This document shows positions 47,826-64,000 of a stretch of 64,000 bases of DNA, piece after piece (within the stretch, counting starts at the first letter, position 1; each line of letters starts with the position of its first letter). The notes beneath the pieces were generated by a model that was not told the DNA's origin, did no database searches, and was given only the letters and a program-made list of their open reading frames with translations. Both the position numbers and the translations under genes were made by a program. Origin of the DNA: Escherichia phage UB; the sequence record MH383160, one strand, 5' to 3'.

Positions 47826-47826
47826 T

Positions 47827-48687: not shown

Positions 48688-49043
48688 TCTTGAATTCCTA
48701 AATTGAATTTGTATTCTTGATTAATACTTGCATTGGGTTTATGCAAAGCAGCATACTCTTTCATTTCATTTTGTATTGCAATAACTTCTTCAAATGTACA
48801 CAAGTACTTCTTATCAAATACTAATGATTCTTGGAATAGTTCTGCGGTATCCATTAATGTATAGTCCGGCATATCTTGGTGTGGATACTGTAATGAACTG
48901 TAATCAATGAATGTAAATTTACCCTGAGTGTAATGAATATACTCATTCGCACTGTGCATTAAATCACCTTTGTTTAAATTACAAAAGTACTGATAACTGT
49001 GCTTGAAAGTATGTACTGATATTAAAAAATCAAATTCCATCAC
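48684..49043 (-). CDS. family A protein, LVFDK subfamily
   Basis: 119 aa; TAELFQESLVFDKKYLCTFEEVIAIQNEMK. Confidence 0.55.
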   Translation of the reverse strand: MMEFDFLISVHTFKHSYQYFCNLNKGDLMHSANEYIHYTQGKFTFIDYSSLQYPHQDMPDYTLMDTAELFQESLVFDKKYLCTFEEVIAIQNEMKEYAALHKPNASINQEYKFNLGIQE

Positions 49044-49417: not shown

Positions 49418-49614
49418 CTTAATCTCTACTATAATTAATAAGGTAAACTCCAATATAAGGAGCACGTTGCGGGGGCGGGGTATTTTTTGTTTCAGGAAAC
49501 ATGAACTGTACTCTGAAAAACACAATATAAAACTTTATATTAAACATATACCTTAGCATGTTTTTCAGCGGAAATTTTTTTGACCCCCCTGCGGCCTGTA
49601 AAAATGAAACGTCT

Positions 49615-49824
49615 CTATTTATTCAGCCTAGAAAGCTTGATTTCTTCAATCCTTTTCATCGCACAAAGCCTTCGACTCGTCATCTCGTATAAATTCAATA
49701 CTCGGTGTACCGTATTATCTACACTCTGAACCAAATATGTATCCTTCAAAATCAAATCCATCATGTATTCAAAACCCTTAATACTATGCGAACTTAACAC
49801 TTCCGGCTCTTCAAACGTAATCAT
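49615..49824 (-). CDS. hypothetical small protein
   Basis: 69 aa ORF. Confidence 0.4.
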   Translation of the reverse strand: MITFEEPEVLSSHSIKGFEYMMDLILKDTYLVQSVDNTVHRVLNLYEMTSRRLCAMKRIEEIKLSRLNK

Positions 49825-50041
49825 AATTCCAATCCCCTATCCCATCTAACCTTCTAAGATATCTTGCGTAAATTATTTCGAAATATCTGTGCAACGAAAT
49901 TACGGATTGCTCATAATCATCATTCCTGTACATTGTGCATGTAAGAAAATCATTTAACCCAAAATCTAAACTGCACTTGAACTTCTCCTTTGCAATATCA
50001 CTATTACTTGCACTTTTCATAATAAACCCTTTGTACCGCAT
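49811..50041 (-). CDS. hypothetical small protein
   Basis: 76 aa ORF. Confidence 0.4.
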   Translation of the reverse strand: MRYKGFIMKSASNSDIAKEKFKCSLDFGLNDFLTCTMYRNDDYEQSVISLHRYFEIIYARYLRRLDGIGDWNYDYV

Positions 50042-50195
50042 TGGTGTACTGTGAACTCAGCACCACTAATAGGTAATCTATATTGTAAGCACGATTTCCT
50101 CGTTGACTAGCACGGCTGGAATAAAGAATATTATCCACATATGTATTGAACTGATCTTCAAATAACTCTTTCATCAGCATTATCCCATCACATAA

Positions 50196-50819
50196 TCATA
50201 CATTAACAACTTTATCGATGTAATCTTCTAACATATCAATATATCTGGTATTGGTTCTAACTAAAAGGTATGCAAATCCAGAGAACTCATGTGTATAATG
50301 CTTTACAGCGTACATACAACGAAGCTTATCATTGTCATACATTGTACTGTACTGAAACAAACTCTCGTCTGATAGCTCTAATAACGCTTGGGCTTCACTT
50401 CTCGTGAACTTCATAGGGTCATGTACTGCATCACAAAAACAAACCTGTGTCTCGCTATTGAAACCCTGTGATAGATATATACCTTCACACTCTGAACGCA
50501 CCGATACTGCATTATAACTATGTGTTGCCCCCATCATATCTGAACTCAAAACTAAAATCAACCCATTTTTATTTTTAATCAACAAATCTGACTTAAGGGA
50601 TTTGATCTCCGTATGGGAAATATCACCAAATCTTCCTGGGACTTCAAACTTATCAACGTTGTATACAATCTTTTGTACTTGCTCTTTTAAACGCTTAATT
50701 GCACTTCTGTCTTTTTCTAATGTATCTAATAAACTCATTGAACTCATTGTGCTTTCCTTACATATTTGTACCGAACAAAACGGAACTTTGAATGCCATTA
50801 ATCGACACTTCATGTACAT
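50196..50819 (-). CDS. family A protein
   Basis: 207 aa; DESLFQYSTMY; start likely internal. Confidence 0.55.
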   Translation of the reverse strand: MYMKCRLMAFKVPFCSVQICKESTMSSMSLLDTLEKDRSAIKRLKEQVQKIVYNVDKFEVPGRFGDISHTEIKSLKSDLLIKNKNGLILVLSSDMMGATHSYNAVSVRSECEGIYLSQGFNSETQVCFCDAVHDPMKFTRSEAQALLELSDESLFQYSTMYDNDKLRCMYAVKHYTHEFSGFAYLLVRTNTRYIDMLEDYIDKVVNV

Positions 50820-51102
50820 ATATATTTTGTCTGAACAAAGGAACTAATTGAACTAAACTCGTTTGCATAATAATATGCATATGTACATTGTCATATGCCG
50901 TTTCGTATTGGAAACGTGCAGCTTCATCTTCTATGAAATTCGGAACTTGGACTGGATTCTCAAAATTTGTCCTTGTACTGAACTGTACATCATTGTCCTG
51001 TACCTTAATACCATATGAATTATCATTGTTATCAACTACATCAAATTCAATTAAACTACCATCTTTACTGACGTTTACTATATAAACCGAAAATCGACTC
51101 AT
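50758..51102 (-). CDS. family A protein (variant motif)
   Basis: 114 aa; EAARFQYETAY. Confidence 0.5.
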   Translation of the reverse strand: MSRFSVYIVNVSKDGSLIEFDVVDNNDNSYGIKVQDNDVQFSTRTNFENPVQVPNFIEDEAARFQYETAYDNVHMHIIMQTSLVQLVPLFRQNIYVHEVSINGIQSSVLFGTNM

Positions 51103-51647
51103 AAACCTATTTCCTCTAAATCTTTGACAAATGTATCATAATCCGATAATGACAAAAATATGTCTGTACTGATGTTTTGACGTAATGTATTAAACAAATT
51201 ATGTACCTGTAATAAATCAGGTGCATAAATCAGGGATTGCTGGAAATACGATTCTTCTGTATCTAATATATCCCTGCACTCAATTTCACGAACTCGTTGG
51301 TATATTGAATTTAATAATACATTTTCATCTTTGAGCATTGGAAGGTATCGGATGTACATGTGCTCCATCAACTCATCCTGGATTGAACCCCTGAACTGCA
51401 ACACGTATTCAAAACACATCACTACATCTTGTAGGTAATTGGCACTGTAATTATTGCTGTAAACAATCTTATGACTTCTGAACTCATCATCATTTCTGAA
51501 CCAATTGTCACCTACTTTGGTGTACTTATGACTAAGCTTCCCATCCTCCAACGCTCGAATGAACTTCATAATGTTAATTGCAAAATCATATGAATGATGC
51601 TTGTGTTGATGCATTTTTACCTCAATTCTGTCCGAAAAAATAACCAA
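51099..51647 (-). CDS. family A protein
   Basis: 182 aa; EESYFQQSLIY. Confidence 0.55.
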   Translation of the reverse strand: MVIFSDRIEVKMHQHKHHSYDFAINIMKFIRALEDGKLSHKYTKVGDNWFRNDDEFRSHKIVYSNNYSANYLQDVVMCFEYVLQFRGSIQDELMEHMYIRYLPMLKDENVLLNSIYQRVREIECRDILDTEESYFQQSLIYAPDLLQVHNLFNTLRQNISTDIFLSLSDYDTFVKDLEEIGL

Positions 51648-51817
51648 AATGTTTAAAGCAAGAAAGCATTACTATGTTCATCACTCTATCATCAAATTCA
51701 TCTTGTGTTTCTGCACATAATGTTTCACAGATATTCAAATGTAATAATTCAAGCTGGAAACTGTCGGTGAACCAATCAAACTTACGGTATTTTTGTTTAA
51801 CATCAACTGTAAGCATA

Positions 51818-52441
51818 CTATATATCCAACCCTTTTACAACATCTACGAAATGTTCAAACACTTCTTTTGAAAAATAACCACCTTCACAAAAAAGCATAC
51901 TAAACGGTGGCAGCATGTCCGATAACTCTTTAGCTAAATTGATTTCTGCTCTTAACTCTTGAACATCAATGATATCATGTACTAAAGATAATTGAAACAT
52001 GAATGCATCTACATCTTCATTCATTTCTGAATTGTAATATAACTCTTCAGGGAATTTGTCGGTTTCGTAATAATAAAAAACTTTATTGTTGAACACACCA
52101 CTAATAGGAACATCATTTTCATCTTTCTTTGAAATGTTTGTTTCCCATGACTCTATATTATTAGGAACAAAAAAATCATAGGCTGACTTTGAACCCTGTA
52201 CTGAATCCAACTTTATTCCATAATATTCCGTATCCATGTATTTCTGCTGTAATGTAATACCACGTGTACTGACATTCACTTGGAATATATCATCTTTATC
52301 TGGAACACTAAATGGAATACATAACACTGAATTCTCAGGGTATTTGGCAATGAATGCATCCAGCACTTTATTAAGCACTGGAATGGCAATTTTACTGTAC
52401 TGCATCAAATCATACATTTTAATTCTGGTCATATCATTCAC
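51818..52441 (-). CDS. family A protein
   Basis: 207 aa; DAFMFQLSLVH. Confidence 0.55.
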   Translation of the reverse strand: MNDMTRIKMYDLMQYSKIAIPVLNKVLDAFIAKYPENSVLCIPFSVPDKDDIFQVNVSTRGITLQQKYMDTEYYGIKLDSVQGSKSAYDFFVPNNIESWETNISKKDENDVPISGVFNNKVFYYYETDKFPEELYYNSEMNEDVDAFMFQLSLVHDIIDVQELRAEINLAKELSDMLPPFSMLFCEGGYFSKEVFEHFVDVVKGLDI

Positions 52442-52973
52442 CTGTGTATGTTTTCACCCTTAGCGATTCAAAATCCCATACATCACTGATTGTACCATTG
52501 TGCCTGTAATCATAATATTCTACTAATACATTATACAATAACTTCAACGATACAAATTCATGATTCCACGGAGCTTTATTGTCATGAACACATTTGGTGA
52601 TATAAGGTATAATATATAAACTAAACAACACTAATGGTGAATGTATACATTGCATTTGAAAATATTCTTCTTCTTGCATACAATGTTCAGGAATAATTAG
52701 ATCATAATGTGTCTCAAATAAATGTAAACCTATTGTGGTTTTTTTCGTATCACATGCGTACCATATTGTACTATCCGAAATAAATGGAATGATACCATTA
52801 TTGTTTGCAATGTACATCATATGGTAAGAGCGATTTGTCTTGTTAAATATCTCGATACTTTCGATATTACTACAAATCATGTATTCAAGGCAATCAATGA
52901 TCTTATCTTTAAATGTACCAATTTCATTGAATGACATTGCTTTCTGTACTTTTGATACTGTTGTACTGCTCAT
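52434..52973 (-). CDS. family A protein
   Basis: 179 aa; EEEYFQMQCIH. Confidence 0.55.
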   Translation of the reverse strand: MSSTTVSKVQKAMSFNEIGTFKDKIIDCLEYMICSNIESIEIFNKTNRSYHMMYIANNNGIIPFISDSTIWYACDTKKTTIGLHLFETHYDLIIPEHCMQEEEYFQMQCIHSPLVLFSLYIIPYITKCVHDNKAPWNHEFVSLKLLYNVLVEYYDYRHNGTISDVWDFESLRVKTYTGE

Positions 52974-53512
52974 ATGTTCTCCTTAAAAAAATCCAAATAC
53001 TCTTCATTGAAAGCATATGTATCATCTTTTTTGTTATGCACCACATAATCATAAAGAGCTATGAATGCAGGGATTATGATCTTACATGATTTATTATTGT
53101 ATTTGTACTGCTCCAAATCAACGGTGTTCAATTTAGCAATAAGCATAGCAGCAAAGATATCTTCATGGCGGTGTACTGTGCTGTACTGAAAATACTCATC
53201 CTCTCCAATATCGGGATGATATAACGGTATAACCAAATTATTACGAATTGACATTTTATATTTTTGTAATGCAGCTAAATGCATGAACCACAATCTATCT
53301 TCATGGAAAGATGGAAAAATAATTTTGTCTGTGCTAATAAAAATTTCTTCATTTCGATTATTTGTCACAAGAGGTGCATACATTTTAATTTTTGCAGATT
53401 TAATAATTAAATTAAAAATATAATGAATCTTATGAACTGCACTTGATGCATCTTCGTATGTACTTGGGATTATGAAACTCACTATATGTTCTCCTTTAAA
53501 ATGAATACACAT
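52970..53512 (-). CDS. family A protein
   Basis: 180 aa; EDEYFQYSTVH. Confidence 0.55.
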   Translation of the reverse strand: MCIHFKGEHIVSFIIPSTYEDASSAVHKIHYIFNLIIKSAKIKMYAPLVTNNRNEEIFISTDKIIFPSFHEDRLWFMHLAALQKYKMSIRNNLVIPLYHPDIGEDEYFQYSTVHRHEDIFAAMLIAKLNTVDLEQYKYNNKSCKIIIPAFIALYDYVVHNKKDDTYAFNEEYLDFFKENI

Positions 53513-53564
53513 GATAACAGCTTTGGTCTTCTATGTCAATACCAAAACGAAAAAAGCCCATATC

Positions 53565-54071
53565 TTACGATACAGGCGTTATGGGCATGTTGATTTGAAT
53601 TTCATTGTACAAATCATCAATATATAGACATGAAAAAAATACACTATCTTGTACTATATTGTTGTGATAAAGCATTTTAAATACTACATAAAAAAATAAA
53701 TCAATATCATCGTGGACTAAATTCTGCTGGAACCACCACTCGTCTGTTAAATCTTGTGCATTAAAATCATCAGGAACTTCAATGAACGACATATCACAAT
53801 CTTCTTTGTACTCAAACCACATGTCGTCATTCGGATAACGTTCATGCTTCTCTGGGTAACAATTGCTGGGATTAAATGTTAAAATATTAAACCCCGTAGA
53901 GCAACGTTCTTTATTTAAAAATGTATTATTCCATACCTGATATTTTTCACCAACATCAAGCTCTTCTGTTACTGATTTTATTGCACATAATGTACTGTAT
54001 ATTGTTTCTATCTTGTGAACATATTTAAATGCAGCATCTAAGCTGAACTCTAAATCATACATGTACTGCAT
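53565..54071 (-). CDS. family A protein
   Basis: 168 aa; DEWWFQQNLVH. Confidence 0.55.
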   Translation of the reverse strand: MQYMYDLEFSLDAAFKYVHKIETIYSTLCAIKSVTEELDVGEKYQVWNNTFLNKERCSTGFNILTFNPSNCYPEKHERYPNDDMWFEYKEDCDMSFIEVPDDFNAQDLTDEWWFQQNLVHDDIDLFFYVVFKMLYHNNIVQDSVFFSCLYIDDLYNEIQINMPITPVS

Positions 54072-54391
54072 AAAATTACCTCAACTAAAGCAAGGACTGT
54101 ATTGAATTCCACTATACTTGTAATTCCTTGAAGGTACATGTACTTTGCTACTACATATTTCTGTACTAAATTATAATTATTAAATTCCTCAAAATTGTAA
54201 TTTAGAACATAATCTGTACTCAAAAATATCTTATGCATCTCTAATGCACTTTGATAATACGCGTACAACTCACGGATATCAATACTGGTTAAATTATATT
54301 GTTCATATCTATGATACGGGATGGCTTCAATTTCAATACTATAAAACCATTCTCTTAACTTATTAATATCAAATGTATTATTCAGCTTCAT
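54050..54391 (-). CDS. hypothetical protein (array)
   Basis: 113 aa ORF; motif not evident. Confidence 0.45.
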   Translation of the reverse strand: MKLNNTFDINKLREWFYSIEIEAIPYHRYEQYNLTSIDIRELYAYYQSALEMHKIFLSTDYVLNYNFEEFNNYNLVQKYVVAKYMYLQGITSIVEFNTVLALVEVILCSTCMI

Positions 54392-54944
54392 AACTCAATA
54401 CCTCCATTAAACACTCATACACACCGTCAATCGCATAAGCACAAAAATTGAAATTAATTTTGTGATTCTTGTGTAATGGACTATTGTGTACTGTACTCAT
54501 TATGACATTATAAAATAACAAACGCACTGGTACAAGCATTGAACCTTGGAAAAATTCTTCCTCTGATTTATATGTATTGTACTCTATTGCGTTGTTCGTT
54601 TCTTTATCATATGTTACCATTACTAACGGGGCATTTTTATTATACCATGCGTACTCTAAATCATTCTTTCCAATAACAGAACCAGGTGCGAAATCCAAAA
54701 GACCAATAACACTACGGGCATTTGGTATATCTGGTGTATTGAATCGTTTATCAAAATGACTCGTGCACGCAATATATGTATTGTACTTCGATGGAATAAT
54801 ACCAATACATTTGTGGAAATGACGCTTGTGATATTTCTGGGCATTATATAAGGCTGCAACAATACAAGCTAACTTTTGTCCCATAAGGATGGCATTAGCG
54901 TAGGTGTACTGAATTTCATTGCTGGTATGGTACTTCGAGGTCAT
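54378..54944 (-). CDS. family A protein
   Basis: 188 aa; EEEFFQGSMLV. Confidence 0.55.
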   Translation of the reverse strand: MTSKYHTSNEIQYTYANAILMGQKLACIVAALYNAQKYHKRHFHKCIGIIPSKYNTYIACTSHFDKRFNTPDIPNARSVIGLLDFAPGSVIGKNDLEYAWYNKNAPLVMVTYDKETNNAIEYNTYKSEEEFFQGSMLVPVRLLFYNVIMSTVHNSPLHKNHKINFNFCAYAIDGVYECLMEVLSYEAE

Positions 54945-55227
54945 AATATTTCCTTTGCCATATCATGGGCTTAAAATCAATAACAGCTTTCTGTATCTTT
55001 TTTAATAATAAGACATCATAACCACCCGTGTCAATCACTAATTGCTGTTGGAACAATTCTTCATCGGATAATGTATTGAAATCTACAAAATAATCTGTAA
55101 CTATCGAATCATTTAAATGTGCCATGTACCAACCTGAACTTCTTGAATAAATCAAATTCCACCCATCGTCATCATCTTCTAATTCAACATAAATCATATC
55201 TGGGGTATACATCATTTTATACTTCAT
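54916..55227 (-). CDS. family A protein
   Basis: 103 aa; DEELFQQQLVI. Confidence 0.55.
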   Translation of the reverse strand: MKYKMMYTPDMIYVELEDDDDGWNLIYSRSSGWYMAHLNDSIVTDYFVDFNTLSDEELFQQQLVIDTGGYDVLLLKKIQKAVIDFKPMIWQRKYYDLEVPYQQ

Positions 55228-56171: not shown

Positions 56172-56524
56172 CCGTAATGAATAGGACTATTCTTTTCTCC
56201 TTTAGGAATAAAATATAAAGATGTACTGGGGTTATAACTGAATAAATCGTTGTTACCAAATGTAAAATGCGATAACTCAATTTTCCTTGTACCTGTACTT
56301 GGACGAAGAGCATTCTTAACACCGAAGACTGTACCTTGATATTTCTCGGAAAATTCAAACAATACATCTGTAATTAAATCACGAAACTCCGCATGTATGG
56401 TTTCAAAAAAATCTATATTACACGATGTTTTAATATCCTTGAACTCATTATAAAAAGCATGTCTTGTATTCAAAAGAAATATTACTTTTTTAAGATCCTG
56501 AACTATTTCTGGATTCATATTCAT
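56114..56524 (-). CDS. hypothetical protein
   Basis: 136 aa ORF. Confidence 0.45.
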   Translation of the reverse strand: MNMNPEIVQDLKKVIFLLNTRHAFYNEFKDIKTSCNIDFFETIHAEFRDLITDVLFEFSEKYQGTVFGVKNALRPSTGTRKIELSHFTFGNNDLFSYNPSTSLYFIPKGEKNSPIHYGWIISYTINGTEYPIKWHD

Positions 56525-56756
56525 TTATCTCATTCTGTAACTTAAGCATCAAAATTTGCATATTAATTTTTTGTAAAAGGTGCTTGATAAATTTCTGTGC
56601 CATTTCTTCTTGTTCTTTTGTACCAAGATAAAATAACAGATTAAATTCTGATAATCGCAAAGAAAAATCTTCATCACCACCCTTTAAACAAAAATCCCTG
56701 TACTTTGTAGCGTACAAATATTGGTTTACCTTTTTATAATACCCTGTGTTTTGCAT
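56490..56756 (-). CDS. family B small protein (outlier copy)
   Basis: 88 aa; FYLGTKEQEEMAQKFIKHL. Confidence 0.45.
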   Translation of the reverse strand: MQNTGYYKKVNQYLYATKYRDFCLKGGDEDFSLRLSEFNLLFYLGTKEQEEMAQKFIKHLLQKINMQILMLKLQNEINEYESRNSSGS

Positions 56757-56944
56757 ACTATCTCCGTTCGCAACGAATTTATATAATAATGAACAAATTG
56801 TTCTTGTGAACGTGTTCCAAGAAAAATAAACATATCAAACTCTGTTGTTTTTAAATTCAATGCATCTTTTGTAAAATTCCTGTTGAATTCCCTGTACTTT
56901 TGGGTCTTCCATTCTTGATTAATTGTCTTGTATATCGATTTCAA
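56726..56944 (-). CDS. family B small protein (outlier copy)
   Basis: 72 aa; IFLGTRSQEQFVHYYINSL. Confidence 0.45.
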   Translation of the reverse strand: MKSIYKTINQEWKTQKYREFNRNFTKDALNLKTTEFDMFIFLGTRSQEQFVHYYINSLRTEIVCKTQGIIKR

Positions 56945-57239
56945 TGATTCTCCCTGACATACCTTGTATTAGCTTATCATACATATCGAGCATCACTTTT
57001 TGAATATTAATTAGTACTGGCATCGTGCAAATATCAATGTCGTATACTAAGCTGTACTGGAATAATTCATCTTCCTGCATTTGTACTAAATTAGGTAAAA
57101 GATAATTGTCTGCCTCTTCATCCTGGTACTTGAAATGCATAACACCATCCTTTTTGTACAAAAGAATGTCAATATCACCTAACTCTTCTGCATAACCAAA
57201 AATACATATACTCGATGTTTTTGCTATATTAAATTTCAT
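56919..57239 (-). CDS. family A protein
   Basis: 106 aa; EDELFQYSLVY. Confidence 0.55.
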   Translation of the reverse strand: MKFNIAKTSSICIFGYAEELGDIDILLYKKDGVMHFKYQDEEADNYLLPNLVQMQEDELFQYSLVYDIDICTMPVLINIQKVMLDMYDKLIQGMSGRIIEIDIQDN

Positions 57240-58045
57240 GATTTATATTGTTCCTTAAAAACACCACAATGATAATTTTTATTGTATTGTGTAATACTAT
57301 AATCACACGGCATTGTCCCGCACGAAGCTCTGTGTTTTAAACGTTCCAATACCTTATCGTAATCTTTACTGAAAATGCCATTTTCATTGGGCGTAGCAAT
57401 CATTAATGCTTGCTCATATAAATCTTTTGTTCTTGTTGAACCATGCGAATGTTTGTTAAAATAAAATACATATTCAACTTCCCAATTACTTCTTAAATAG
57501 GATATTCCGTAATTGATAATCATATAATAATGTAAATCCTTGTAATAATTGAATGTCTTATCTGTATTAATCAAAATATATGAAGAACTATCATTGTCCT
57601 TAATAACAAATAAACGACCAATCTTATTTTCTTTATCTTTAACTAATTGTCTAATTTCATCACCTTCTTCAAATTTACGATGCACTTCAATTACAGATTT
57701 AGCAATCCCAGTCTGTACTAAAGATTCATATGTTGCGTACATAAAATCACTTACATGACCTAAACCAACATCTTCTTTTCTTGGTGTCTCTGTTGTATTG
57801 ACAAACATATTCAATAACTTTTGAATTGAAAAATCAGTACTGCAATCTTTATTAATTTTAATTTTTTCTCGAATCTCTTCCTTTAATGCATTAATATATT
57901 GCTCTTGTGCTGCTTCCTGATAATTTGTACCAAGATATAAACTCAAGGCAACTGAACCTTTGTAAGATGCTGATTTCTTTAAATCACCAGAACTAAATTT
58001 TTTCATAATCAAATTGGTTGCTTCAGATTCTGTTAAAAATTTCAT
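57236..58045 (-). CDS. family B module fused to a larger C-terminal domain
   Basis: 269 aa; N-terminal about 75 aa carries LSLYLGTNYQEAAQEQYINALKEEI; followed by about 190 aa unrelated region. Confidence 0.55.
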   Translation of the reverse strand: MKFLTESEATNLIMKKFSSGDLKKSASYKGSVALSLYLGTNYQEAAQEQYINALKEEIREKIKINKDCSTDFSIQKLLNMFVNTTETPRKEDVGLGHVSDFMYATYESLVQTGIAKSVIEVHRKFEEGDEIRQLVKDKENKIGRLFVIKDNDSSSYILINTDKTFNYYKDLHYYMIINYGISYLRSNWEVEYVFYFNKHSHGSTRTKDLYEQALMIATPNENGIFSKDYDKVLERLKHRASCGTMPCDYSITQYNKNYHCGVFKEQYKS

Positions 58046-58153
58046 ATCATTGTACCTTATCTTAAAATTGAATAGGTAAACATGTTAACACTATTCAAAT
58101 GGAGTGTCAACATTGATCTTCATTCTGTGAATATTAAATTTCATATTATTCTC

Positions 58154-58486
58154 TTATATATTGAATTCACATACGTGTTGAACAAAATTCTTTGGAAGAT
58201 GACAATGTGCAATCATCTGCTGTTGCACTTTCTTCATATCTTCTAATGTAAAACCTAAAGAATCATCGTGTACTAACATGTACTGAAACTCTTCTTCTTC
58301 AGAGATAGAACATAAATTCGGTACTGAAATTGTTTTTGTTTTTCTTGCACCTAATTTCCAATGAAAAGAATTATTGCATTTTCTGTACTCAAATATCTTC
58401 AACCCAGCACCTCTATTAAAATCAGCTACTACAATGTAACATGAATTCTTACGTACAATACAATTAAATTTACGCATTATCTCCAC
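58154..58486 (-). CDS. family A protein
   Basis: 110 aa; EEEEFQYMLVH. Confidence 0.55.
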   Translation of the reverse strand: MEIMRKFNCIVRKNSCYIVVADFNRGAGLKIFEYRKCNNSFHWKLGARKTKTISVPNLCSISEEEEFQYMLVHDDSLGFTLEDMKKVQQQMIAHCHLPKNFVQHVCEFNI

Positions 58487-58722
58487 CTCTCTCCGTCATC
58501 GCAAGAGTACTGGTACGTTGTCGTTAGGGTAGGGACCATGTTGGTAATGGGCATATTATTAACAATAACCGTAACAGGCATAAGAATCGTCTCTACTCTA
58601 CTCTGTCCTGTCCTTGTGCAATTCATCTTTTGCATTTCATCTGAATCCATGAAATACAATACAAATGGTGCAATCCCAAGAACAATACACAAGACGATAA
58701 GGAAATTTAAAAAATTTAACAT
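58477..58722 (-). CDS. small membrane protein
   Basis: 81 aa with N-terminal hydrophobic helix (FLNFLIVLCIVLGIAPFVLYF). Confidence 0.4.
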   Translation of the reverse strand: MLNFLNFLIVLCIVLGIAPFVLYFMDSDEMQKMNCTRTGQSRVETILMPVTVIVNNMPITNMVPTLTTTYQYSCDDGERWR

Positions 58723-58781
58723 AATTTTTACCCTATGATTAACGTTAGTGTACTATATCAGTAATGAAAAGTACTGTCAAG

Positions 58782-59177
58782 CTAGTACTGCACTGTTCTA
58801 ATGAAAGTACCTTTACTCATGGATTTAAGCTTATGAACCTCTTCCTGCATACCCTTAATTAACCCTAAAGGTATAGGTAAATCATGTACTAAGCTGTACT
58901 GAAAGTATTCTTCTTCAGATAAAGTACTAACATCTGGGACTCCAATTTTAGTTAGATAATCTTGATGTGTTGACCAATAAATTATATCTTCAGTACTATT
59001 GTACTCCCCATATACTGAACAATATTGATGAATATCTTTCCTGTACCCTTGAGCAATAAAGAACTTATCTACTGCATTACCAGCATTAATAGAATTCACT
59101 TCTATTGTCACAGTACTTGAGCTTGTATAACTCTTAATATTATCAGTACTCAATAATGTGTTCTTCATAATCACCAT
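58782..59177 (-). CDS. family A protein
   Basis: 131 aa; LSEEEYFQYSLVH. Confidence 0.55.
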   Translation of the reverse strand: MVIMKNTLLSTDNIKSYTSSSTVTIEVNSINAGNAVDKFFIAQGYRKDIHQYCSVYGEYNSTEDIIYWSTHQDYLTKIGVPDVSTLSEEEYFQYSLVHDLPIPLGLIKGMQEEVHKLKSMSKGTFIRTVQY

Positions 59178-59487
59178 TAGGCTCCTGTTTAGATTCTTTC
59201 ATTAGTACTATCATCTTATGTACTAATGGCATAGGAAACTCTAAATCCCATACTAATGATTCCTGAAAGTATTCTTCTTCAGATAAAGTACTTAAATCTT
59301 TAATATCAACGTGCTTGTATATTTTATTTTCGTAATTAACAAATGATATATATAAATCACTAACATAAGAATCATAGGTAATTGTGAATGGCTTACCCTT
59401 GTAATCCATTACATCTCTACATAGACTACTTTTGATATATGTATGTTCAAATGATTTATATACCTTGAGTTGTATATTAGTTTTCAT
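59143..59487 (-). CDS. family A protein
   Basis: 114 aa; LSEEEYFQESLVW. Confidence 0.55.
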   Translation of the reverse strand: MKTNIQLKVYKSFEHTYIKSSLCRDVMDYKGKPFTITYDSYVSDLYISFVNYENKIYKHVDIKDLSTLSEEEYFQESLVWDLEFPMPLVHKMIVLMKESKQEPNGDYEEHIIEY

Positions 59488-59752
59488 ATTTCTCTTTATT
59501 AGCTTGTTTTGTTTTATGGTGAATTAAATCTATTAATGTAATCAAGTACAACGTCAAATAGTACTCTTGTTGATCTGTACCTAATGATACAAAGAACTTG
59601 TGCTCATAGATTAAAACCTGTTTCTCTTCAAATGGACATTTAATCCTCTGTATAGGCTTAAGTAAATGATAGTACTTATTAAATCTATGATACATTTCTA
59701 GTTCTGTCAGTACTTTCATATTAAACACGTACTCCATTAGCAGTAGCATCAC
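59477..59752 (-). CDS. family B small protein
   Basis: 91 aa; VSLGTDQQEYYL. Confidence 0.5.
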   Translation of the reverse strand: MMLLLMEYVFNMKVLTELEMYHRFNKYYHLLKPIQRIKCPFEEKQVLIYEHKFFVSLGTDQQEYYLTLYLITLIDLIHHKTKQANKEKYEN

Positions 59753-59942
59753 GTAAAGCTGTCAAATACTTCTGTACTGCTTGCTCTTGTTTATTTGTAC
59801 CTAAAAGTATATACATCCATAATTCACTGTAATGTACATCTTCTGTATAAGGGTTGTTGTAACTTTTTGATAATATAGCATCAAATTCAGATGCATGAAC
59901 CCTTGTGAACTTAAGAATATCTTGTTGTGTTATGATTCTCAT
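59721..59942 (-). CDS. family B small protein
   Basis: 73 aa; ILLGTNKQEQAV. Confidence 0.5.
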   Translation of the reverse strand: MRIITQQDILKFTRVHASEFDAILSKSYNNPYTEDVHYSELWMYILLGTNKQEQAVQKYLTALRDATANGVRV

Positions 59943-60154
59943 ATCTTTTCCTGTACAATCTGTATAAGAATACCTATGTGTGAATTAACAGTTCTCTCTT
60001 GATGCTGTGTTCCTAAGAGTGTCAGTACTATCATATCTGAACGCAAAAGATTTTTTTCAAGTTCACTTATATCAGTTCTTGAATCAAGTGCCATATATTT
60101 GTGATTATTCTTCCTGAATAGTGCCAAGTACTCTTGATTTGATATTTCCTTCAT
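59939..60154 (-). CDS. family B small protein
   Basis: 71 aa; LTLLGTQHQERTV. Confidence 0.5.
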   Translation of the reverse strand: MKEISNQEYLALFRKNNHKYMALDSRTDISELEKNLLRSDMIVLTLLGTQHQERTVNSHIGILIQIVQEKI

Positions 60155-60372
60155 AGTTTATTCCTGATGCCATTTAAAAGTGCTCTAATATGCTCATTGA
60201 CAAATCGCTCTTGGGAATCTGTTCCTAGAGTGAGTAGCAATCTTAAATCTGAACTTTTGATGTGATATTCTAAATCATTATTTGATTCTTGCATCAGTTT
60301 CTTAAAGGATGAGAAGTTTGCAGCCATTAGTTCAATGTATTCTGCTGTTCCTAGTGGTTTGTGTGTTGACAT
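60151..60372 (-). CDS. family B small protein
   Basis: 73 aa; LLTLGTDSQERFV. Confidence 0.5.
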   Translation of the reverse strand: MSTHKPLGTAEYIELMAANFSSFKKLMQESNNDLEYHIKSSDLRLLLTLGTDSQERFVNEHIRALLNGIRNKL

Positions 60373-60584
60373 TTGAGTTGTATTACCCTTTTGAGTGTAT
60401 TAATGTAATTATACACATTGGCTTCTTGATAGTTTGTTCCTAGAGTAGCTTGAACATAGATTTCATTTAACTTAATAATTTTATCAGTATCTGGTAGTTT
60501 TGATGTGTTAATGGCAAATAACTTCAAAAACAGTCCATTTAAGATTGTTAGGTATTCTTCGTCGGTAATGATTCGCATTTGCAT
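60351..60584 (-). CDS. family B small protein
   Basis: 77 aa; ATLGTNYQEANV. Confidence 0.5.
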   Translation of the reverse strand: MQMRIITDEEYLTILNGLFLKLFAINTSKLPDTDKIIKLNEIYVQATLGTNYQEANVYNYINTLKRVIQLKCQHTNH

Positions 60585-60796
60585 TGGATAAACCTTTTTA
60601 GTTCTTTGATGTAATCATTAATATTGCATTCTTGGTAGTTAGTTCCCAGTGTAGCTTGAACATAGATTTCACTTACTAGAATACTTATTTCATCATCTGG
60701 TAATTTCATGCTTTTTGTTATAAACAACTTTAGAATTAAACTACTTAATAGTTGGTTGTATTCTGTGGGTGAAATGATTTTCATTTTCATTTGCAT
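60548..60796 (-). CDS. family B small protein
   Basis: 82 aa; ATLGTNYQECNI. Confidence 0.5.
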   Translation of the reverse strand: MQMKMKIISPTEYNQLLSSLILKLFITKSMKLPDDEISILVSEIYVQATLGTNYQECNINDYIKELKRFIQCKCESLPTKNT

Positions 60797-61002
60797 TTTC
60801 TCAGTACTGATTCTTTAAGTTCATTGATGTAGTCCTCAACGAATTGTTCTTGTAGGTTTGTTCCGAGATATAACAGTACTCTTAAATCTGCTCTAAGTAC
60901 TTCTTTGTCATCTTCATCTATATCAGACAGTGTTATGTTTAAGAATTTACTTGAATTCTCTACAAGTAATATTACTTCTTCACCTTCTCTTAAAATTTTC
61001 AT
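60787..61002 (-). CDS. family B small protein
   Basis: 71 aa; LYLGTNLQEQFV. Confidence 0.5.
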   Translation of the reverse strand: MKILREGEEVILLVENSSKFLNITLSDIDEDDKEVLRADLRVLLYLGTNLQEQFVEDYINELKESVLRKCK

Positions 61003-61208
61003 AATCTTAGTGCTTTCCTCGACAGTAGGTACAGGTAACGTTCAGTGCATTGTTCTTGATAGTTTGTTCCTAATAAATGAACTAAATGTTGTTCAGCTAT
61101 AGAAAGCTGCTTGTCTTCATAACAAGCGTATCGTTGTTTCCTATGGTATTCTTTATTGATAACATCAAGGATGATAACACCGTATTCGTCATCTGTCAAG
61201 TGTTTCAT
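60999..61208 (-). CDS. family B small protein
   Basis: 69 aa; HLLGTNYQEQCT. Confidence 0.5.
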   Translation of the reverse strand: MKHLTDDEYGVIILDVINKEYHRKQRYACYEDKQLSIAEQHLVHLLGTNYQEQCTERYLYLLSRKALRL

Positions 61209-61446
61209 GCTTTTTTCTTTTTCTTATATGTTTAGTTAAAAGGTATATTAGTTTTCTGATGTATTCTTCCTGATAGTTTGTTCCTAAGAGTGCAAGAAGT
61301 TTTGCTTCAACTAAAGCTAATTGACGTTCTTCGAATGTGTGTTCCAGTATGTACTTGGGGTTTGATTTTTTAGCGTAAGCACTATTAGTCTTCATTACAA
61401 TCTTATGATATTCATTAGCTGTTAGGATTTTTAAATACTTGATCAT
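61189..61446 (-). CDS. family B small protein
   Basis: 85 aa; ALLGTNYQEEYI. Confidence 0.5.
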   Translation of the reverse strand: MIKYLKILTANEYHKIVMKTNSAYAKKSNPKYILEHTFEERQLALVEAKLLALLGTNYQEEYIRKLIYLLTKHIRKRKKHETLDR

Positions 61447-61666
61447 GTATCTTTTCCTTTATAGAGAATTTAAGATATCGAAGCATACTTTCAATGTAAT
61501 ACTCTTGTCTGTCAGTGCCAAGAAAGTACATGAGTTGAATGTATAAAACTTCTGCACTCCTTTCCGCTGGAGACTTGTTTGTGTCGTTTGGAAGTTGATT
61601 TGTATGTTTTCTTGATTTAATTAGTCGTTCTTTTAACTCATCGTCTGTTAAGTATTTCATTTTCAT
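61415..61666 (-). CDS. family B small protein (PAERSAEVL subtype)
   Basis: 83 aa; PAERSAEVLYIQLMYFLGTDRQEYYI. Confidence 0.5.
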   Translation of the reverse strand: MKMKYLTDDELKERLIKSRKHTNQLPNDTNKSPAERSAEVLYIQLMYFLGTDRQEYYIESMLRYLKFSIKEKIHDQVFKNPNS

Positions 61667-61892
61667 TTACTTTTTCCTTAATAGTAATTTTAAGATATCT
61701 AATCATACGTGCAACATATTCCTCTTGTCTATCAGTTCCCAGAAGATATGGTAGTGATTGGAATAATACTTCTGCACTCCTTTCTGCTGGGGTTTGGTTT
61801 AGGTCAATTGGACGTTTATTGGTATATCTCTTGGCACGAACTAATCTCTCGACGTATTCATTATAGGTTAAGTATATCATTTCATTTTGCAT
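61638..61892 (-). CDS. family B small protein (PAERSAEVL subtype)
   Basis: 84 aa; PAERSAEVLFQSLPYLLGTDRQEEYV. Confidence 0.5.
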   Translation of the reverse strand: MQNEMIYLTYNEYVERLVRAKRYTNKRPIDLNQTPAERSAEVLFQSLPYLLGTDRQEEYVARMIRYLKITIKEKVNENEILNRR

Positions 61893-62118
61893 TTACTTTT
61901 TCCTTAATAGTAATTTTGAGATATTTAATTATACGTTCAATGTGATACTCTTGCCTATCAGTTCCAAGAAGGTATGGTAATCTTTGGAATAAAACTTCCG
62001 CACTCCTTTCTGCTGGGGTTTGATTTGTGTTGTGAGGAAGTTTATTTGTAAGTCTTTTGGATTTATCTAGTCTTTCTGTTAACTCATCATGTGTTAAGTA
62101 TATCATTTCATTTTGCAT
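61882..62118 (-). CDS. family B small protein (PAERSAEVL subtype)
   Basis: 78 aa; PAERSAEVLFQRLPYLLGTDRQEYHI; N-terminus MQNEMIYLT identical to neighbour. Confidence 0.5.
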   Translation of the reverse strand: MQNEMIYLTHDELTERLDKSKRLTNKLPHNTNQTPAERSAEVLFQRLPYLLGTDRQEYHIERIIKYLKITIKEKVNAK

Positions 62119-62345
62119 TTAATGTTCCTTACGTAAATTGTCTGGATTAAACAATCAATCCAAGTTTGAATATATTGGTTTTGATACTGTGTGCCTAAGA
62201 GACTCTGCATTTTAAACTCTGCTTCAAGTTCATATCTCTTTTCTATAGAAAAGCTCAAATGACCATATTCTTTATCGTATCTTCTCAGTGCTTCCCCAAT
62301 TCTATTAAATCTTTCTGCTAATCTGATGTTATTCACAATATTCAT
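62103..62345 (-). CDS. family B small protein
   Basis: 80 aa; SLLGTQYQNQYI. Confidence 0.5.
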   Translation of the reverse strand: MNIVNNIRLAERFNRIGEALRRYDKEYGHLSFSIEKRYELEAEFKMQSLLGTQYQNQYIQTWIDCLIQTIYVRNIKCKMK

Positions 62346-62632
62346 CGATCAGTATACCTCAGTGGTTGGGTCATTTGATAAAAGTACAGCTTACCTTTGA
62401 TTTCCAGTAGTAACTCCGCGATTAAGCGATTTACTTCTGTATCTTGATAGTTTGTTCCTAAGAATACACCCATCTTTAACTCACGCATCATAATCATTTT
62501 CTTACTGTGTTGGATTTCTGGGTTGTGATAAATTGTATTACGTTTGTGCGTAATTTTTGTCATACGCTCGGTATATTCATCTTTACTTAAATTGATCATT
62601 TGCATGTTAATTACCCTTACATTTATTTTCAA
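62342..62632 (-). CDS. family B small protein
   Basis: 96 aa; VFLGTNYQDTEV. Confidence 0.5.
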   Translation of the reverse strand: MKINVRVINMQMINLSKDEYTERMTKITHKRNTIYHNPEIQHSKKMIMMRELKMGVFLGTNYQDTEVNRLIAELLLEIKGKLYFYQMTQPLRYTDR

Positions 62633-62837
62633 TACTATTCATGAGTTCTATAAGATAGTTTTCTACCTTACCTTCCTGATAGTTAGTCCCTAGGAAGTTG
62701 CACAACACGGCTTCTATGATTTTGATTTTCCTGATATCAGGCTTCAATCTTTTGTTATTGAATATTTGAATCCTTATATCTCTGGATGCATTTAAACGTT
62801 TTTGATATTCATGGTAAGTTAAATGAATCATTTTCAT
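62607..62837 (-). CDS. family B small protein
   Basis: 76 aa; NFLGTNYQEGKV. Confidence 0.5.
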   Translation of the reverse strand: MKMIHLTYHEYQKRLNASRDIRIQIFNNKRLKPDIRKIKIIEAVLCNFLGTNYQEGKVENYLIELMNSIENKCKGN

Positions 62838-63052
62838 TTACGTTTAACCTCTCGCTGGAGGGCATCAATTAACATCAGTACAGCATTCTCTTGATAGTTT
62901 GTTCCTAAGACTGAAAGCATCTTTATCTCATTTACTAAAATCAACTTCTTTGAGGGTTCAATAATGTGACTATCATAAACGGCCTTACGTGCTGGATAAG
63001 TTTTCGCCAGTATAACATAAAATTCGTCTTTACTTAAATTAATCATTTGCAT
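62834..63052 (-). CDS. family B small protein
   Basis: 72 aa; SVLGTNYQENAV. Confidence 0.5.
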   Translation of the reverse strand: MQMINLSKDEFYVILAKTYPARKAVYDSHIIEPSKKLILVNEIKMLSVLGTNYQENAVLMLIDALQREVKRK

Positions 63053-63261
63053 TTACTTTTAACCTCTTTCTGTAGAGCGTCAATCCATAGATCTACATAC
63101 ATTTGTTGATAGTTTGTGCCTAAGAGTGCACCTACATAGAGTTCAGTTACTAGTGCGTGCTTAAGGTTAGCTTGGATGCTCTTATCGCTTGATATCATTC
63201 TCCTTCTGCTTCCACATGTTTTCAGGAGTCTGATGTATTCAAAGCCTTGTAAATTTCTCAT
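63043..63261 (-). CDS. family B small protein
   Basis: 72 aa; ALLGTNYQQMYV. Confidence 0.5.
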   Translation of the reverse strand: MRNLQGFEYIRLLKTCGSRRRMISSDKSIQANLKHALVTELYVGALLGTNYQQMYVDLWIDALQKEVKSKCK

Positions 63262-63473
63262 ATTTTGGATACCACCTTGTTACGTAAGGAACTTAATAAT
63301 ACGTCAGTGTAGATGTTTTGATAGTTTGTCCCTACGAATACACCCAACTTCATTTCAGCTATTATAACACATTTGTCCTCTTGTGCAATAGATTTGTTTA
63401 ACACAATACTATACACTTTTGATTTGATAGTTTGTAACCTCCAATGATACTGATACTCATTAAGGATTATCAT
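63258..63473 (-). CDS. family B small protein
   Basis: 71 aa; VFVGTNYQNIYT. Confidence 0.5.
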   Translation of the reverse strand: MIILNEYQYHWRLQTIKSKVYSIVLNKSIAQEDKCVIIAEMKLGVFVGTNYQNIYTDVLLSSLRNKVVSKI

Positions 63474-63708
63474 TCTCTTTCCTCCAGATTTCGGTTCTCA
63501 TGTGTTGGCAGTGTGCTTCGATGAACATATCTATTGATTTGGCAATTGCGTTTTTATCAGTGCCTGTCATCAGTACAAGCATCTCGGCCTCACAGTGAAG
63601 TAAACGCATGATATCATAGGGTAATATTTCAGATACAGTGTCATAGTGTTTCTGTGCCAGTGTCTGCAATAGTTTACAATACATTTTGTGATTTAGTCTT
63701 TGTCGCAT
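63460..63708 (-). CDS. family B-like small protein (divergent)
   Basis: 82 aa; LVLMTGTDKNAIAKSI. Confidence 0.4.
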   Translation of the reverse strand: MRQRLNHKMYCKLLQTLAQKHYDTVSEILPYDIMRLLHCEAEMLVLMTGTDKNAIAKSIDMFIEAHCQHMRTEIWRKENDNP

Positions 63709-63965
63709 TGTTTATTCCATTCTTTTTTGGCCTTGATGGTTTTATATTGGATTTGGTTTCTTAATGCTGATAAGTATCGTTGAATGAACAGATCTTGATA
63801 GTTTGTTCCAATGAATTTCATAAGATAAAGTTCACCGTTGATAACATCCACTTCAGGTGCACCATATAAGGCATTGTTTTTTCTAAGGGCATGGATTAAA
63901 GAGAATAGGGCAGTTTGATACTCAACTCCTGATAAAGTCTTCATGTTTTGTGAGCAAATAATCAT
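63693..63965 (-). CDS. family B small protein
   Basis: 90 aa; KFIGTNYQDLFIQRYL. Confidence 0.5.
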   Translation of the reverse strand: MIICSQNMKTLSGVEYQTALFSLIHALRKNNALYGAPEVDVINGELYLMKFIGTNYQDLFIQRYLSALRNQIQYKTIKAKKEWNKQCDKD

Positions 63966-64000
63966 CTAGTTTATCCTGTATAACATTCGTTAATTGTTCG

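What the first reader, a model, noticed from the sequence alone, without database searches (positions are those of the whole stretch)
57236..58045. Family B module fused to a larger C-terminal domain
ORF 57236..58045 (269 aa) begins with a typical family B module (…LSLYLGTNYQEAAQEQYINALKEEI…) and then continues for about 190 aa of unrelated sequence. This suggests the small family B proteins are a modular domain (adaptor, targeting or regulatory) that can be attached to an effector.
Basis: partly seen in the sequence, partly recalled or inferred. Interest (0 to 1): 0.6.

Follow-up and report, generated by a model that had tools for sequence, protein, structure and literature searches.

The report
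Paralogue module fused to nuclease-like protein
In a giant E. coli phage, one copy of a ~70-residue protein that occurs about 30 times per genome is joined head-to-tail to a rare ~200-residue protein whose predicted fold resembles a (probably inactive) GIY-YIG nuclease; the fusion is real and stable, but it is an isolated case and its function is unknown.

Summary
The ORF lies on the minus strand (58045→57236, 269 aa) and is identical to AXC36995.1 of Escherichia phage UB. Residues 1-66 are a complete "family B" unit (phrog_4148; E 6e-12 against a profile built from the other window paralogues). Residues ~72-269 are a complete copy of a very rare protein that is otherwise free-standing (188-200 aa; RaK2 ORF380 and two metagenomic lineages). 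An exhaustive search of 1.8 billion representatives found only four clusters.

The fusion is not an artefact. It is intact in at least 24 independent contigs (5 DNA alleles). The annotated start has a normal Shine-Dalgarno site, and the internal Met80 has none.

The gene sits on a 905-bp presence/absence segment. This segment is flanked by a 14-bp direct repeat and carries its own promoter-like site.

Only 1 of 33 family B genes in the 46 kb of EC.P1 examined (record 310,000-356,444) is fused. RaK2 has two family B proteins with a different C-terminal extension. "Modular domain attached to an effector" is therefore only partly supported. This is a modestly interesting new variant.

The parts
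57236..58045 (-). Fusion ORF, 269 aa plus TGA stop; identical to AXC36995.1 of Escherichia phage UB
57848..58045 (-). Family B module, residues 1-66 (phrog_4148); predicted four-helix unit; invariant L38-G39-T40..Q43 motif at 57914..57934
57833..57847 (-). Junction, residues 67-71 (DCSTD), between the end of the family B unit and the first residues homologous to free-standing relatives; low model confidence
57239..57832 (-). C-terminal part, residues 72-269; a full-length homologue of free-standing 188-200-aa proteins (RaK2 ORF380, P0002, P0004)
57746..57778 (-). Most conserved motif of the C-terminal family, K90-E-x-x-G-x-G-x-x-x-D100 (KEDVGLGHVSD)
   Evidence: (invariant columns)
57323..57619 (-). 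Predicted GIY-YIG/T5orf172-like core, residues 143-241: beta hairpin GRLFVIKD/YILINT, helix, strand WEVEYVFYF, two helices
   Evidence: register also found by hhalign (not significant)
57266..57322 (-). Cys/His-rich tail, residues 242-260 (C-x4-C...H-C); relatives have C-x3-4-C...H...H; possible zinc site; model confidence below 50
57806..57808 (-). Internal ATG (Met80), aligned with Met1 of free-standing P0004; no Shine-Dalgarno site (-0.4 kcal/mol)
58055..58058 (-). Shine-Dalgarno-like AAGG, 10-13 nt upstream of the annotated ATG (-4.7 kcal/mol duplex)
58082..58110 (-). Sigma-70-like promoter candidate TTGACA-17-TAACAT with TG extension (10 of 12), inside the inserted segment
   Evidence: the count of such sites in the region is not above shuffles
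57240..58144 (-). 905-bp presence/absence segment (promoter-like site plus fusion ORF), absent from WPEC3/WPEC5; a larger 1239-bp stretch, 57240..58478, is absent from PBECO4 and E9.1
57226..57239 (-). Direct repeat copy 1, ATGAAATTTAATAT (the first 14 nt of family A gene A1)
58131..58144 (-). Direct repeat copy 2, ATGAAATTTAATAT; it opens a 17-codon remnant ORF (58091..58144, MKFNIHRMKINVDTPFE*)
56919..57239 (-). Family A gene A1 (106 aa, phrog_13866), immediately downstream; its ATG overlaps the fusion ORF's TGA (ATGA) and its Shine-Dalgarno site lies in the last codons of the fusion ORF
58154..58486 (-). Family A gene A2 (107 aa from the ATG at 58477, or 110 aa from the GTG), immediately upstream

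Best explanation
Shown:
- The ORF encodes one genuine 269-aa protein. It was made by head-to-tail fusion of two complete genes of the hypervariable small-gene region of RaK2-like jumbo phages.
- The first part is a divergent member of the ~70-aa family B array.
- The second part is a single-copy ~200-aa gene that in related phages stands alone, just upstream of family A arrays.
- The gene lies on a 905-bp segment, bounded by 14-bp direct repeats, that is present in some Asteriusvirus-type genomes and absent from others.

Inferred from a predicted structure: the C-terminal part consists of a helical sub-domain with a conserved K-E-x-x-G-x-G-x-x-x-D motif, then a GIY-YIG/T5orf172-like beta-beta-alpha-beta-alpha core, then a Cys/His tail. 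The canonical GIY-YIG catalytic Tyr, Arg and Glu are not conserved.

Inferred mechanism:
- It is expressed from its own sigma-70-like promoter and Shine-Dalgarno site.
- It acts as a nucleic-acid-binding accessory protein. It is probably non-cleaving, or cleaves by a non-canonical site.
- The family B helical module sits where T5orf172-type proteins normally carry their DNA-binding or targeting domain. It would therefore add a second binding specificity, for DNA or for a partner protein.

Origin: the fusion most likely arose by a small deletion or stop-codon loss between adjacent genes. It is spread or lost by recombination at short homologies.
For: Real, stable ORF:
- It is intact in phage EC.P1 (98.9% identity) and in at least 24 contigs from NCBI, ENA and Logan assemblies.
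- All five members of its 90% cluster are 269 aa.
- There are five DNA alleles, none with a stop or frameshift.

N-terminal part is family B.

C-terminal part is a whole free-standing protein:
- An exhaustive phmmer search found only four 50% clusters. The other three are 188-200 aa and align from their residues 3-7 to fusion residues 74-88.
- Met1 of P0004 aligns with Met80.
- RaK2 ORF380 is annotated as a 200-aa gene.

Translation start: Shine-Dalgarno duplex energy is -4.7 kcal/mol at the annotated start and -0.4 at Met80.

Fold:
- The AlphaFold model built from alignment A2 has mean pLDDT 75.9. It shows two confident domains and a weak linker.
- Foldseek against viral models returns at least 17 T5orf172, GIY-YIG, MSV199 or BRO proteins at E 5e-4 to 2e-2.

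Cassette:
- Boundaries were defined against PBECO4, E9.1, WPEC3 and WPEC5.
- The 14-mer occurs exactly twice in the window, at the two borders.
- A promoter-like site lies inside the segment.

Conserved neighbourhood: the C-domain gene is followed by family A arrays in RaK2 and in metagenomic locus L008, as in the window.

Literature: T5orf172 proteins are GIY-YIG relatives with exchangeable N-terminal DNA-binding modules (PMC10448857, PMC8096241).
Against: - No sequence-level link to GIY-YIG or T5orf172 was found. Pfam, NCBIfam, PADLOC and PHROGs give nothing for the C-terminal part.
- PDB sequence and profile searches give nothing.
- hhalign against 11 real T5orf172 domains gives E 0.13 and probability 0.45%.
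- Foldseek against the PDB gives nothing below E 0.8.
- The model rests on an alignment with an effective depth of about 2 for this domain, and pTM is 0.44.
- The residues expected to be catalytic are Phe146 (invariant), Tyr156 (only in this protein), no Arg in helix 1, and Glu211 (not conserved).
- The fusion is unique among 33 paralogues in the EC.P1 region examined and among the 120 best database hits.
- The carriers differ by at most 4 nt, so selection on the fused state cannot be measured.
- The count of promoter-like sites in the region is no higher than in shuffled sequence.
Confidence: 0.55

Rival explanations
1. Neutral accident. Two neighbouring small genes lost the stop/start boundary. 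Each half works, or fails, as it did before, and the family B part is not a functional targeting or adaptor domain for the C-terminal part.
For: - The join is exactly end-to-start: a typical family B tail ...REKIKINKDCST is followed by residues homologous to the N-terminus of P0002.
- Genes in this region routinely abut or overlap, so a small indel is enough to fuse them.
- The free-standing relatives work without any N-terminal module.
- Only one fusion is seen among 33 paralogues in the EC.P1 region examined.
- The model predicts no contact between the domains (linker pLDDT 54-64, pTM 0.44).
Against: - The N-terminal unit is at most 40% identical to any known paralogue yet keeps every family invariant. 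It has therefore been under constraint for a long time.
- The fused allele is found in many samples from several continents.
- A second family-B-plus-extension architecture exists in RaK2.
Confidence: 0.3
2. Selfish cassette. The 905-bp segment is a free-standing homing-endonuclease-like gene (GIY-YIG/T5orf172 class). It cuts the empty site in related phages during co-infection and is copied in by repair.
For: - There is a precise presence/absence polymorphism between two conserved genes.
- The segment carries its own promoter-like site and Shine-Dalgarno site.
- The segment is 98.7-100% identical among carriers, while flanks fall to 60-97% within 1-2 kb. That resembles a co-conversion tract.
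- It has a GIY-YIG-like predicted fold and a Cys/His element, as in I-TevI and SLX1.
- T5orf172 homing genes mark recombination boundaries in other phages (PMC10448857).
Against: - The canonical catalytic residues are absent in the whole family.
- Homing does not create 14-bp flanking direct repeats. These fit recombination or deletion at short homology better.
- The gene keeps the same neighbourhood (upstream of family A arrays) in distant phages, which suggests an old resident gene rather than an invader.
- The whole region is mosaic anyway.
Confidence: 0.12
3. Artefact or two proteins. A sequencing or assembly frameshift joined two genes, or the C-terminal part is translated on its own from Met80.
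For: - Met80 aligns exactly with the start of free-standing P0004.
- In the +1 frame a TGA lies just before that ATG (direct reading).
Against: - The reading frame is identical in at least 24 independently assembled contigs and 5 alleles.
- The Shine-Dalgarno energy at Met80 is in the weakest 7% of genes.
- Homology to P0002 extends upstream of Met80, to residue 74.
Confidence: 0.04

Closest known systems
T5orf172 / GIY-YIG (URI) superfamily proteins of phages, e.g. the ICP1 T5orf172 putative homing endonucleases and the nuclease Odn; SLX1 as the closest solved fold
   Same: - The architecture has an unrelated N-terminal module in front of the nuclease-like domain.
- There is a Cys/His element next to the core.
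- It is encoded in a variable, recombining part of a phage genome (PMC10448857, PMC8096241).
   Different: - There is no profile match to PF01541 or PF10544.
- Phe replaces the first motif Tyr. The helix-1 Arg is absent and the Glu is not conserved.
- An extra N-terminal helical sub-domain carries a K-E-x-x-G-x-G-x-x-x-D motif.
- The attached module is family B, not BRO-N, KilA-N or CapR.
RaK2 ORF380 (YP_007007535.1) and its relatives P0002, P0003 and P0004: free-standing uncharacterised proteins
   Same: They are homologous over the whole C-terminal 190-200 residues (39-44% identity). They share the motifs and the Cys/His tail. They occupy the same position, upstream of family A arrays.
   Different: They lack the family B module and start at the position of fusion residues 72-80.
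phrog_4148 small proteins (family B) of Asteriusvirus and Alcyoneusvirus phages
   Same: Full-length profile match and all invariant residues; same region of the genome.
   Different: The others are 58-95 aa and free-standing. This one carries ~200 extra residues and has a shorter variable middle segment.
Free-standing homing endonuclease genes of T-even phages (seg and mob genes, I-TevI)
   Same: Intergenic presence/absence between close relatives; own promoter-like signal; near-identity among carriers.
   Different: No catalytic motif; flanking 14-bp direct repeats; no demonstrated target site.
Lineage-specific expansions of small putative DNA-binding proteins in jumbo phages (e.g. ~35 zinc-ribbon copies in Bacillus phage G; PMC7824862)
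   Same: About 33 tandem copies of a ~70-aa protein in one genome.
   Different: Family B is all-helical with an L-G-T-x-x-Q motif. Its resemblance to a Cro/C1-type helix-turn-helix is not significant (E 0.21).

Membership tests
Family B (phrog_4148) | Profile match over the whole ~75-position unit | tested here: met
   E 6e-12 to an HMM built without this ORF, model positions 8-74 of 76; phrog_4148 E 1.2e-10, positions 1-72 of 74
Family B (phrog_4148) | Invariant L-G-T-x-x-Q motif and the downstream Leu | tested here: met
   L38, G39, T40, Q43 and L54 are all present
Family B (phrog_4148) | Free-standing protein of 58-95 aa | tested here: not met
   269 aa; every other member seen is 58-95 aa, apart from RaK2 ORF362 and ORF372
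GIY-YIG superfamily (including T5orf172) | Three-stranded sheet with flanking helices in the order beta1-beta2-alpha1-beta3-alpha2 | tested here: met
   [not shown]
GIY-YIG superfamily (including T5orf172) | Significant sequence or profile similarity to PF01541, PF10544 or known members | tested here: not met
   No Pfam hit at E up to 1. hhalign against 11 T5orf172 domains gives E 0.13, though in the expected register.
GIY-YIG superfamily (including T5orf172) | Catalytic Tyr (GIY), Tyr (YIG), Arg in helix 1, Glu in helix 2 | tested here: not met
   Mapped by motif position and predicted secondary structure onto alignment A1: invariant Phe146; Tyr156 only in this protein (Phe or Leu in relatives); no Arg after T161-x-x-T-F; Glu211 is Ser or Thr in some relatives. 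No structural superposition was available
GIY-YIG superfamily (including T5orf172) | Metal-dependent nuclease activity | not testable with these tools
   Needs purified protein
Free-standing homing endonuclease gene | Presence/absence at one intergenic site among close relatives | tested here: met
   Present in UB, EC.P1 and at least 24 contigs. Clean empty site in WPEC3 and WPEC5. Larger gap in PBECO4 and E9.1
Free-standing homing endonuclease gene | Flank co-conversion: a high-identity tract around the gene among carriers | tested here: inconclusive
   The segment is 98.7-100% identical and the flanks fall to 60-97%. The region is mosaic everywhere, and non-carriers have similar near flanks
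Free-standing homing endonuclease gene | Cleavage of the allele that lacks the gene; super-Mendelian inheritance | not testable with these tools
   Needs phage crosses and an in vitro cleavage assay
Moron (autonomous transcription unit inserted between two phage genes) | Own promoter and terminator flanking a single ORF | tested here: inconclusive
   Promoter-like TTGACA-17-TAACAT (10 of 12, TG) lies inside the segment. No minus-strand terminator was found, and the site count is not above shuffles

The most novel reading that the evidence does not exclude
The ~33 tandem family B genes are a diversifying library of small targeting modules (helix-turn-helix-like DNA binders or partner binders). 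The fusion would then reveal their working partner: family B proteins would normally act in trans with the GIY-YIG-like protein, or with other nucleases, to direct it to chosen DNA sites. That would be a phage-encoded, paralogue-programmed targeting system used in competition between phages or against the host.
Probability: 0.06. Interest if true: 0.75.

Novelty: new variant of a known kind. Interest (0 to 1): 0.35.

Why it matters
Jumbo phages of the RaK2/121Q group devote tens of kilobases to arrays of small paralogous genes with no known function. A natural fusion gives a first functional lead of the "Rosetta stone" kind. It places a family B unit in the position where T5orf172/GIY-YIG-type proteins carry their DNA-binding or targeting module. 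It also points to a rare, previously unclassified ~200-aa family that probably has a degenerate GIY-YIG-like fold. This gives concrete constructs to test: full-length, 1-66 and 72-269. The case also illustrates how new multidomain proteins and presence/absence cassettes arise by recombination at 9-14-bp homologies between paralogue starts. The practical importance is limited unless an activity is found.

Tried and rejected
- Pfam, NCBIfam, PADLOC and PHROGs scans of the C-terminal part and its three relatives gave no family. The weak PHROG 'virion structural protein' hit (E 0.005-0.01) was treated as noise.
- PDB sequence and profile searches gave nothing relevant.
- Single-sequence AlphaFold was unusable (pLDDT 33). 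Only the alignment-based model was used.
- The afdb50 fold library was not available.
- Foldseek against the PDB gave no significant hit.
- The word-indexed homologue search missed the distant relatives that the exhaustive search found. A profile search with alignment A1 added no new members.
This is kept only as a lead.
- Family B profile against Pfam returned scattered single-member noise only.
- Idea that a family B gene lies directly upstream of the free-standing C-domain gene in relatives (the pre-fusion state) was not found in RaK2, L007, L008 or L009. Family B genes lie within 2.5-3.5 kb in RaK2.
- A nucleotide search for a donor of the 905-bp segment found only EC.P1.
- Papers on Asteriusvirus, Sharanji, CBB and RaK2 do not describe these families beyond noting that paralogues exist.

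Full report
**Source and setting.** The window is AT-rich (about 30-36% G+C) and almost wholly transcribed from the minus strand. It matches E. coli jumbo phages of the PBECO4/121Q (Asteriusvirus) type at 92-97% identity; the best match in the phage collection is EC.P1. The exact 269-aa product is AXC36995.1 of Escherichia phage UB. The left part of the window carries recognisable enzymes: ClpP, two metallophosphatases, DNA ligase, polynucleotide kinase-phosphatase and RNA ligase 1. The right two thirds are arrays of small paralogous genes.

**Checking the observation.**
- The ORF runs from 58045 to 57236 on the minus strand: 269 codons plus a TGA stop.
- I built a profile from 22 other window ORFs that carry the L-G-T-x-x-Q-E motif. 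Searched against all window ORFs, it recovers 24 ORFs (23 family B members including this one, after setting aside the weakest hit).
- It matches the 269-aa ORF at E 6e-12, residues 6-63 against model positions 8-74 of 76.
- PHROG phrog_4148 gives the same result (E 1.2e-10, residues 1-63).
- All invariant columns of the family are present (L38, G39, T40, Q43, L54).
- In the joint alignment the free-standing members end a few residues after the position of Lys66 of the fusion. The N-terminal part is therefore a complete family B unit, not a fragment. It is a divergent one, at most 40% identical to any paralogue in the window or in the database.

**The C-terminal part.**
- A translated search of 50,697 phage records finds the whole protein only in EC.P1 (98.9%). 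It finds residues 88-259 in RaK2-type Klebsiella phages at ~40% identity.
- There the match is RaK2 ORF380, an annotated 200-aa gene.
- An exhaustive phmmer scan of 1.84 billion cluster representatives finds just four clusters. These are the fusion itself and three free-standing proteins of 196, 200 and 188 aa, aligned from their residues 3-7 to fusion residues 74-88.
- In the multiple alignment Met1 of the 188-aa protein coincides with Met80 of the fusion. The 196-aa protein aligns back to about residue 72.
- A profile search added no further members.
- The C-terminal ~198 residues are thus a full-length copy of a very rare, otherwise independent protein. The join (residues 67-71, DCSTD) lies exactly between the end of one gene and the beginning of the next.

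**Artefact and internal-start tests.**
- The near-identical cluster representative P0001 (99% identity to the window protein) is encoded on at least 24 contigs from NCBI assemblies, ENA and Logan runs. The gene order is always the same.
- The 90% cluster has five members, all 269 aa.
- Across the window and eleven loci there are five DNA alleles that differ by at most four substitutions. None has a stop or frameshift.
- The annotated start has an AAGG Shine-Dalgarno site with duplex energy -4.7 kcal/mol. The median for 150 minus-strand genes is -5.6. Met80 has -0.4 kcal/mol, which is in the weakest 7%.
- A sequencing error is excluded, and independent translation of the C-terminal part is unlikely.

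**What the C-terminal part looks like.**
- Pfam, NCBIfam, PADLOC, PHROGs and PDB sequence searches give nothing.
- A single-sequence AlphaFold run failed (pLDDT 33).
- I then used a block alignment of 22 family B paralogues and the three free-standing relatives (A2). The model reached mean pLDDT 75.9.
- Confidence by region: the N-terminal helical domain scores 77-91 and the linker (68-90) is weak. The C-terminal domain scores mostly 75-94 and the last 27 residues are unmodelled.
- After three helices, the C-terminal domain runs strand 143-150, strand 156-161, helix 168-179, strand 188-196, helix 202-216, helix 229-241.
- Foldseek against viral models returns the protein itself, then RaK2 ORF380, then a 'CapR homology domain' protein of the same phage. 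After these comes a long run of T5orf172, GIY-YIG, MSV199 and BRO proteins at E 5e-4 to 2e-2.
- Foldseek against the PDB is not significant; SLX1 appears only at E 4.9.
- To test the link by sequence, I collected 11 real T5orf172 domains from phage records, two of them annotated as such. hhalign of the C-domain family against them aligns GRLFVIKD...YILINT with G.VYi...KIG.T. That is the register expected from the fold, but the score is only E 0.13.
- I therefore treat 'GIY-YIG/T5orf172-like fold' as moderately supported by prediction only.
- The residues that define an active GIY-YIG enzyme are not kept. The first motif has an invariant Phe, and the second Tyr is present only in this protein. 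There is no Arg in the following helix, and the helix-2 Glu is not conserved.
- What the family does conserve is K90, E91, G94, G96 and D100 in front of the domain, plus H122, G143-R144-x-F146, T161, T164-F165 and a C-x3-4-C...H...H tail.
- The literature describes T5orf172 as a GIY-YIG subfamily. Its phage members combine the nuclease-like domain with exchangeable N-terminal DNA-binding modules, and some have been domesticated as repressors (PMC8096241, PMC10448857).

**Genomic anatomy.**
- Against PBECO4 and E9.1 the window has an extra 1239 bp (57240..58478), comprising the fusion ORF and family A gene A2.
- Against WPEC3 and WPEC5, which have both family A genes side by side, the extra DNA is 905 bp (57240..58144).
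- That segment is bounded by a perfect 14-bp direct repeat, ATGAAATTTAATAT. The repeat is the start of family A gene A1, and it occurs nowhere else in the window.
- The upstream copy opens a 17-codon remnant ORF.
- The segment carries the best sigma-70-like site of the neighbourhood apart from one at 58780: TTGACA-17-TAACAT with TG.
- Its last codons supply the Shine-Dalgarno site of A1.
- Among carriers the segment is 98.7-100% identical, while DNA 1-2 kb away drops to 60-97%.
- Only 1 of 35 related records in the phage collection carries it.
- The free-standing gene is also followed by family A arrays in RaK2 and in a 25.7-kb metagenomic contig. The C-domain gene is therefore an old resident of this neighbourhood.
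- The polymorphism could be a recent recombinational import, or loss by deletion between short repeats. I cannot decide between these two.

**Is family B a general module?**
- In the last 46 kb of EC.P1 there are 33 family B genes. 32 of them are 63-94 aa, and only the fusion is long.
- A profile search of the 5.8-billion-protein collection gave 144 hits. The best 120 are all 68-95 aa and come from E. coli and Salmonella jumbo phages.
- RaK2 has at least 12 members in 50 kb. Two of them (ORF362, 121-128 aa; ORF372, 115 aa) continue into a shared ~50-aa extension that is unrelated to the GIY-YIG-like part.
- Family B thus tolerates C-terminal additions of two unrelated kinds, but fusion is rare.
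- The invariant L-G-T-x-x-Q lies at a helix-turn-helix junction of the model. It resembles the Cro/C1 signature as I recall it from memory, but the profile comparison is not significant (E 0.21).

**Verdict.**
- The best reading (confidence about 0.55) is a two-gene fusion. It yields an accessory protein, probably expressed early, with a degenerate GIY-YIG/T5orf172-like nucleic-acid-binding domain. In this protein the family B unit occupies the usual place of a targeting module.
- The main rival (about 0.3) is a functionally neutral fusion of neighbouring genes.
- A homing-type selfish cassette is possible but weakened by the missing catalytic residues and the flanking repeats (about 0.12).
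- It is a new variant of a known kind of phage protein, of moderate-to-low interest unless an activity is shown.

Noticed in passing
window 56919..59487, with weaker members at 30463..55227; L021 27654..29686; L008 2080..7880: A second multigene family ('family A', phrog_13866, motif EEE[YF]FQxSLVxD) has 5 strong and about 16 weaker members in the window. Arrays of it lie directly downstream of the free-standing C-domain gene in RaK2 and in a metagenomic contig, so gene order is conserved across distant jumbo phages.
   Followed up: partly
window 59477..63965 and 44034..44421, 56490..56944; L020 (EC.P1 310000-356444); L021 (RaK2 225000-274999): Family B is a very large tandem expansion: at least 23 members in the window, 33 in 46 kb of EC.P1 and at least 12 in 50 kb of RaK2. 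Members often overlap by a few codons.
   Followed up: yes
L021 20149..20535 (RaK2 ORF362) and 23814..24161 (ORF372): Two RaK2 proteins join a family B core to a shared ~50-aa C-terminal extension (...Y-E-x-[FY]-[RK]-F...C-E-[ST]-[MI]-E-x-A...K-x-N-N-Y). No free-standing copy of that extension turned up in the sequences I held.
   Followed up: partly
window 58091..58144 (-): A 17-codon remnant ORF, MKFNIHRMKINVDTPFE*, begins with the duplicated start of family A gene A1. The promoter-like TTGACA lies inside it.
   Followed up: no
window 57239/58479 junction against PBECO4 (L003) and E9.1 (L006): Genomes with a single family A gene join exactly at the start codons of A1 and A2, which share AAATTTAAT. 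This suggests paralogue gain or loss by unequal recombination at 9-14-bp homologies.
   Followed up: partly
window 60001..64000: Base composition changes over the family B array. GC skew rises to about 0 and AT skew falls to about -0.22. Elsewhere the values are about -0.15 and -0.04.
   Followed up: no
window 4862..17851 (-): A cluster of recognisable enzymes: ClpP protease, two calcineurin-like phosphoesterases, ATP-dependent DNA ligase, polynucleotide kinase-phosphatase and T4-type RNA ligase 1. The last two form an RNA-repair pair.
   Followed up: no
window 30463..54944 (-): A long run of tandem ORFs of about 140-200 aa. Several hit the family A profile weakly in their C-terminal halves, which suggests larger proteins that share the family A core.
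   Followed up: no
L030 1489..1797 (Escherichia phage JP4 346435-346743): An Asteriusvirus-type phage encodes a bona fide 102-aa T5orf172-like protein between an annotated endonuclease and a tail fibre gene. Phage UB also has a 487-aa 'CapR homology domain' protein that was the third structural hit to the model.
   Followed up: no
window 56738..56926 and 59126..59145 against EC.P1, WPEC3, WPEC5: There are further small indel and replacement boundaries between otherwise 91-97% identical relatives on both sides of the finding. The whole region is a recombination mosaic.
   Followed up: no
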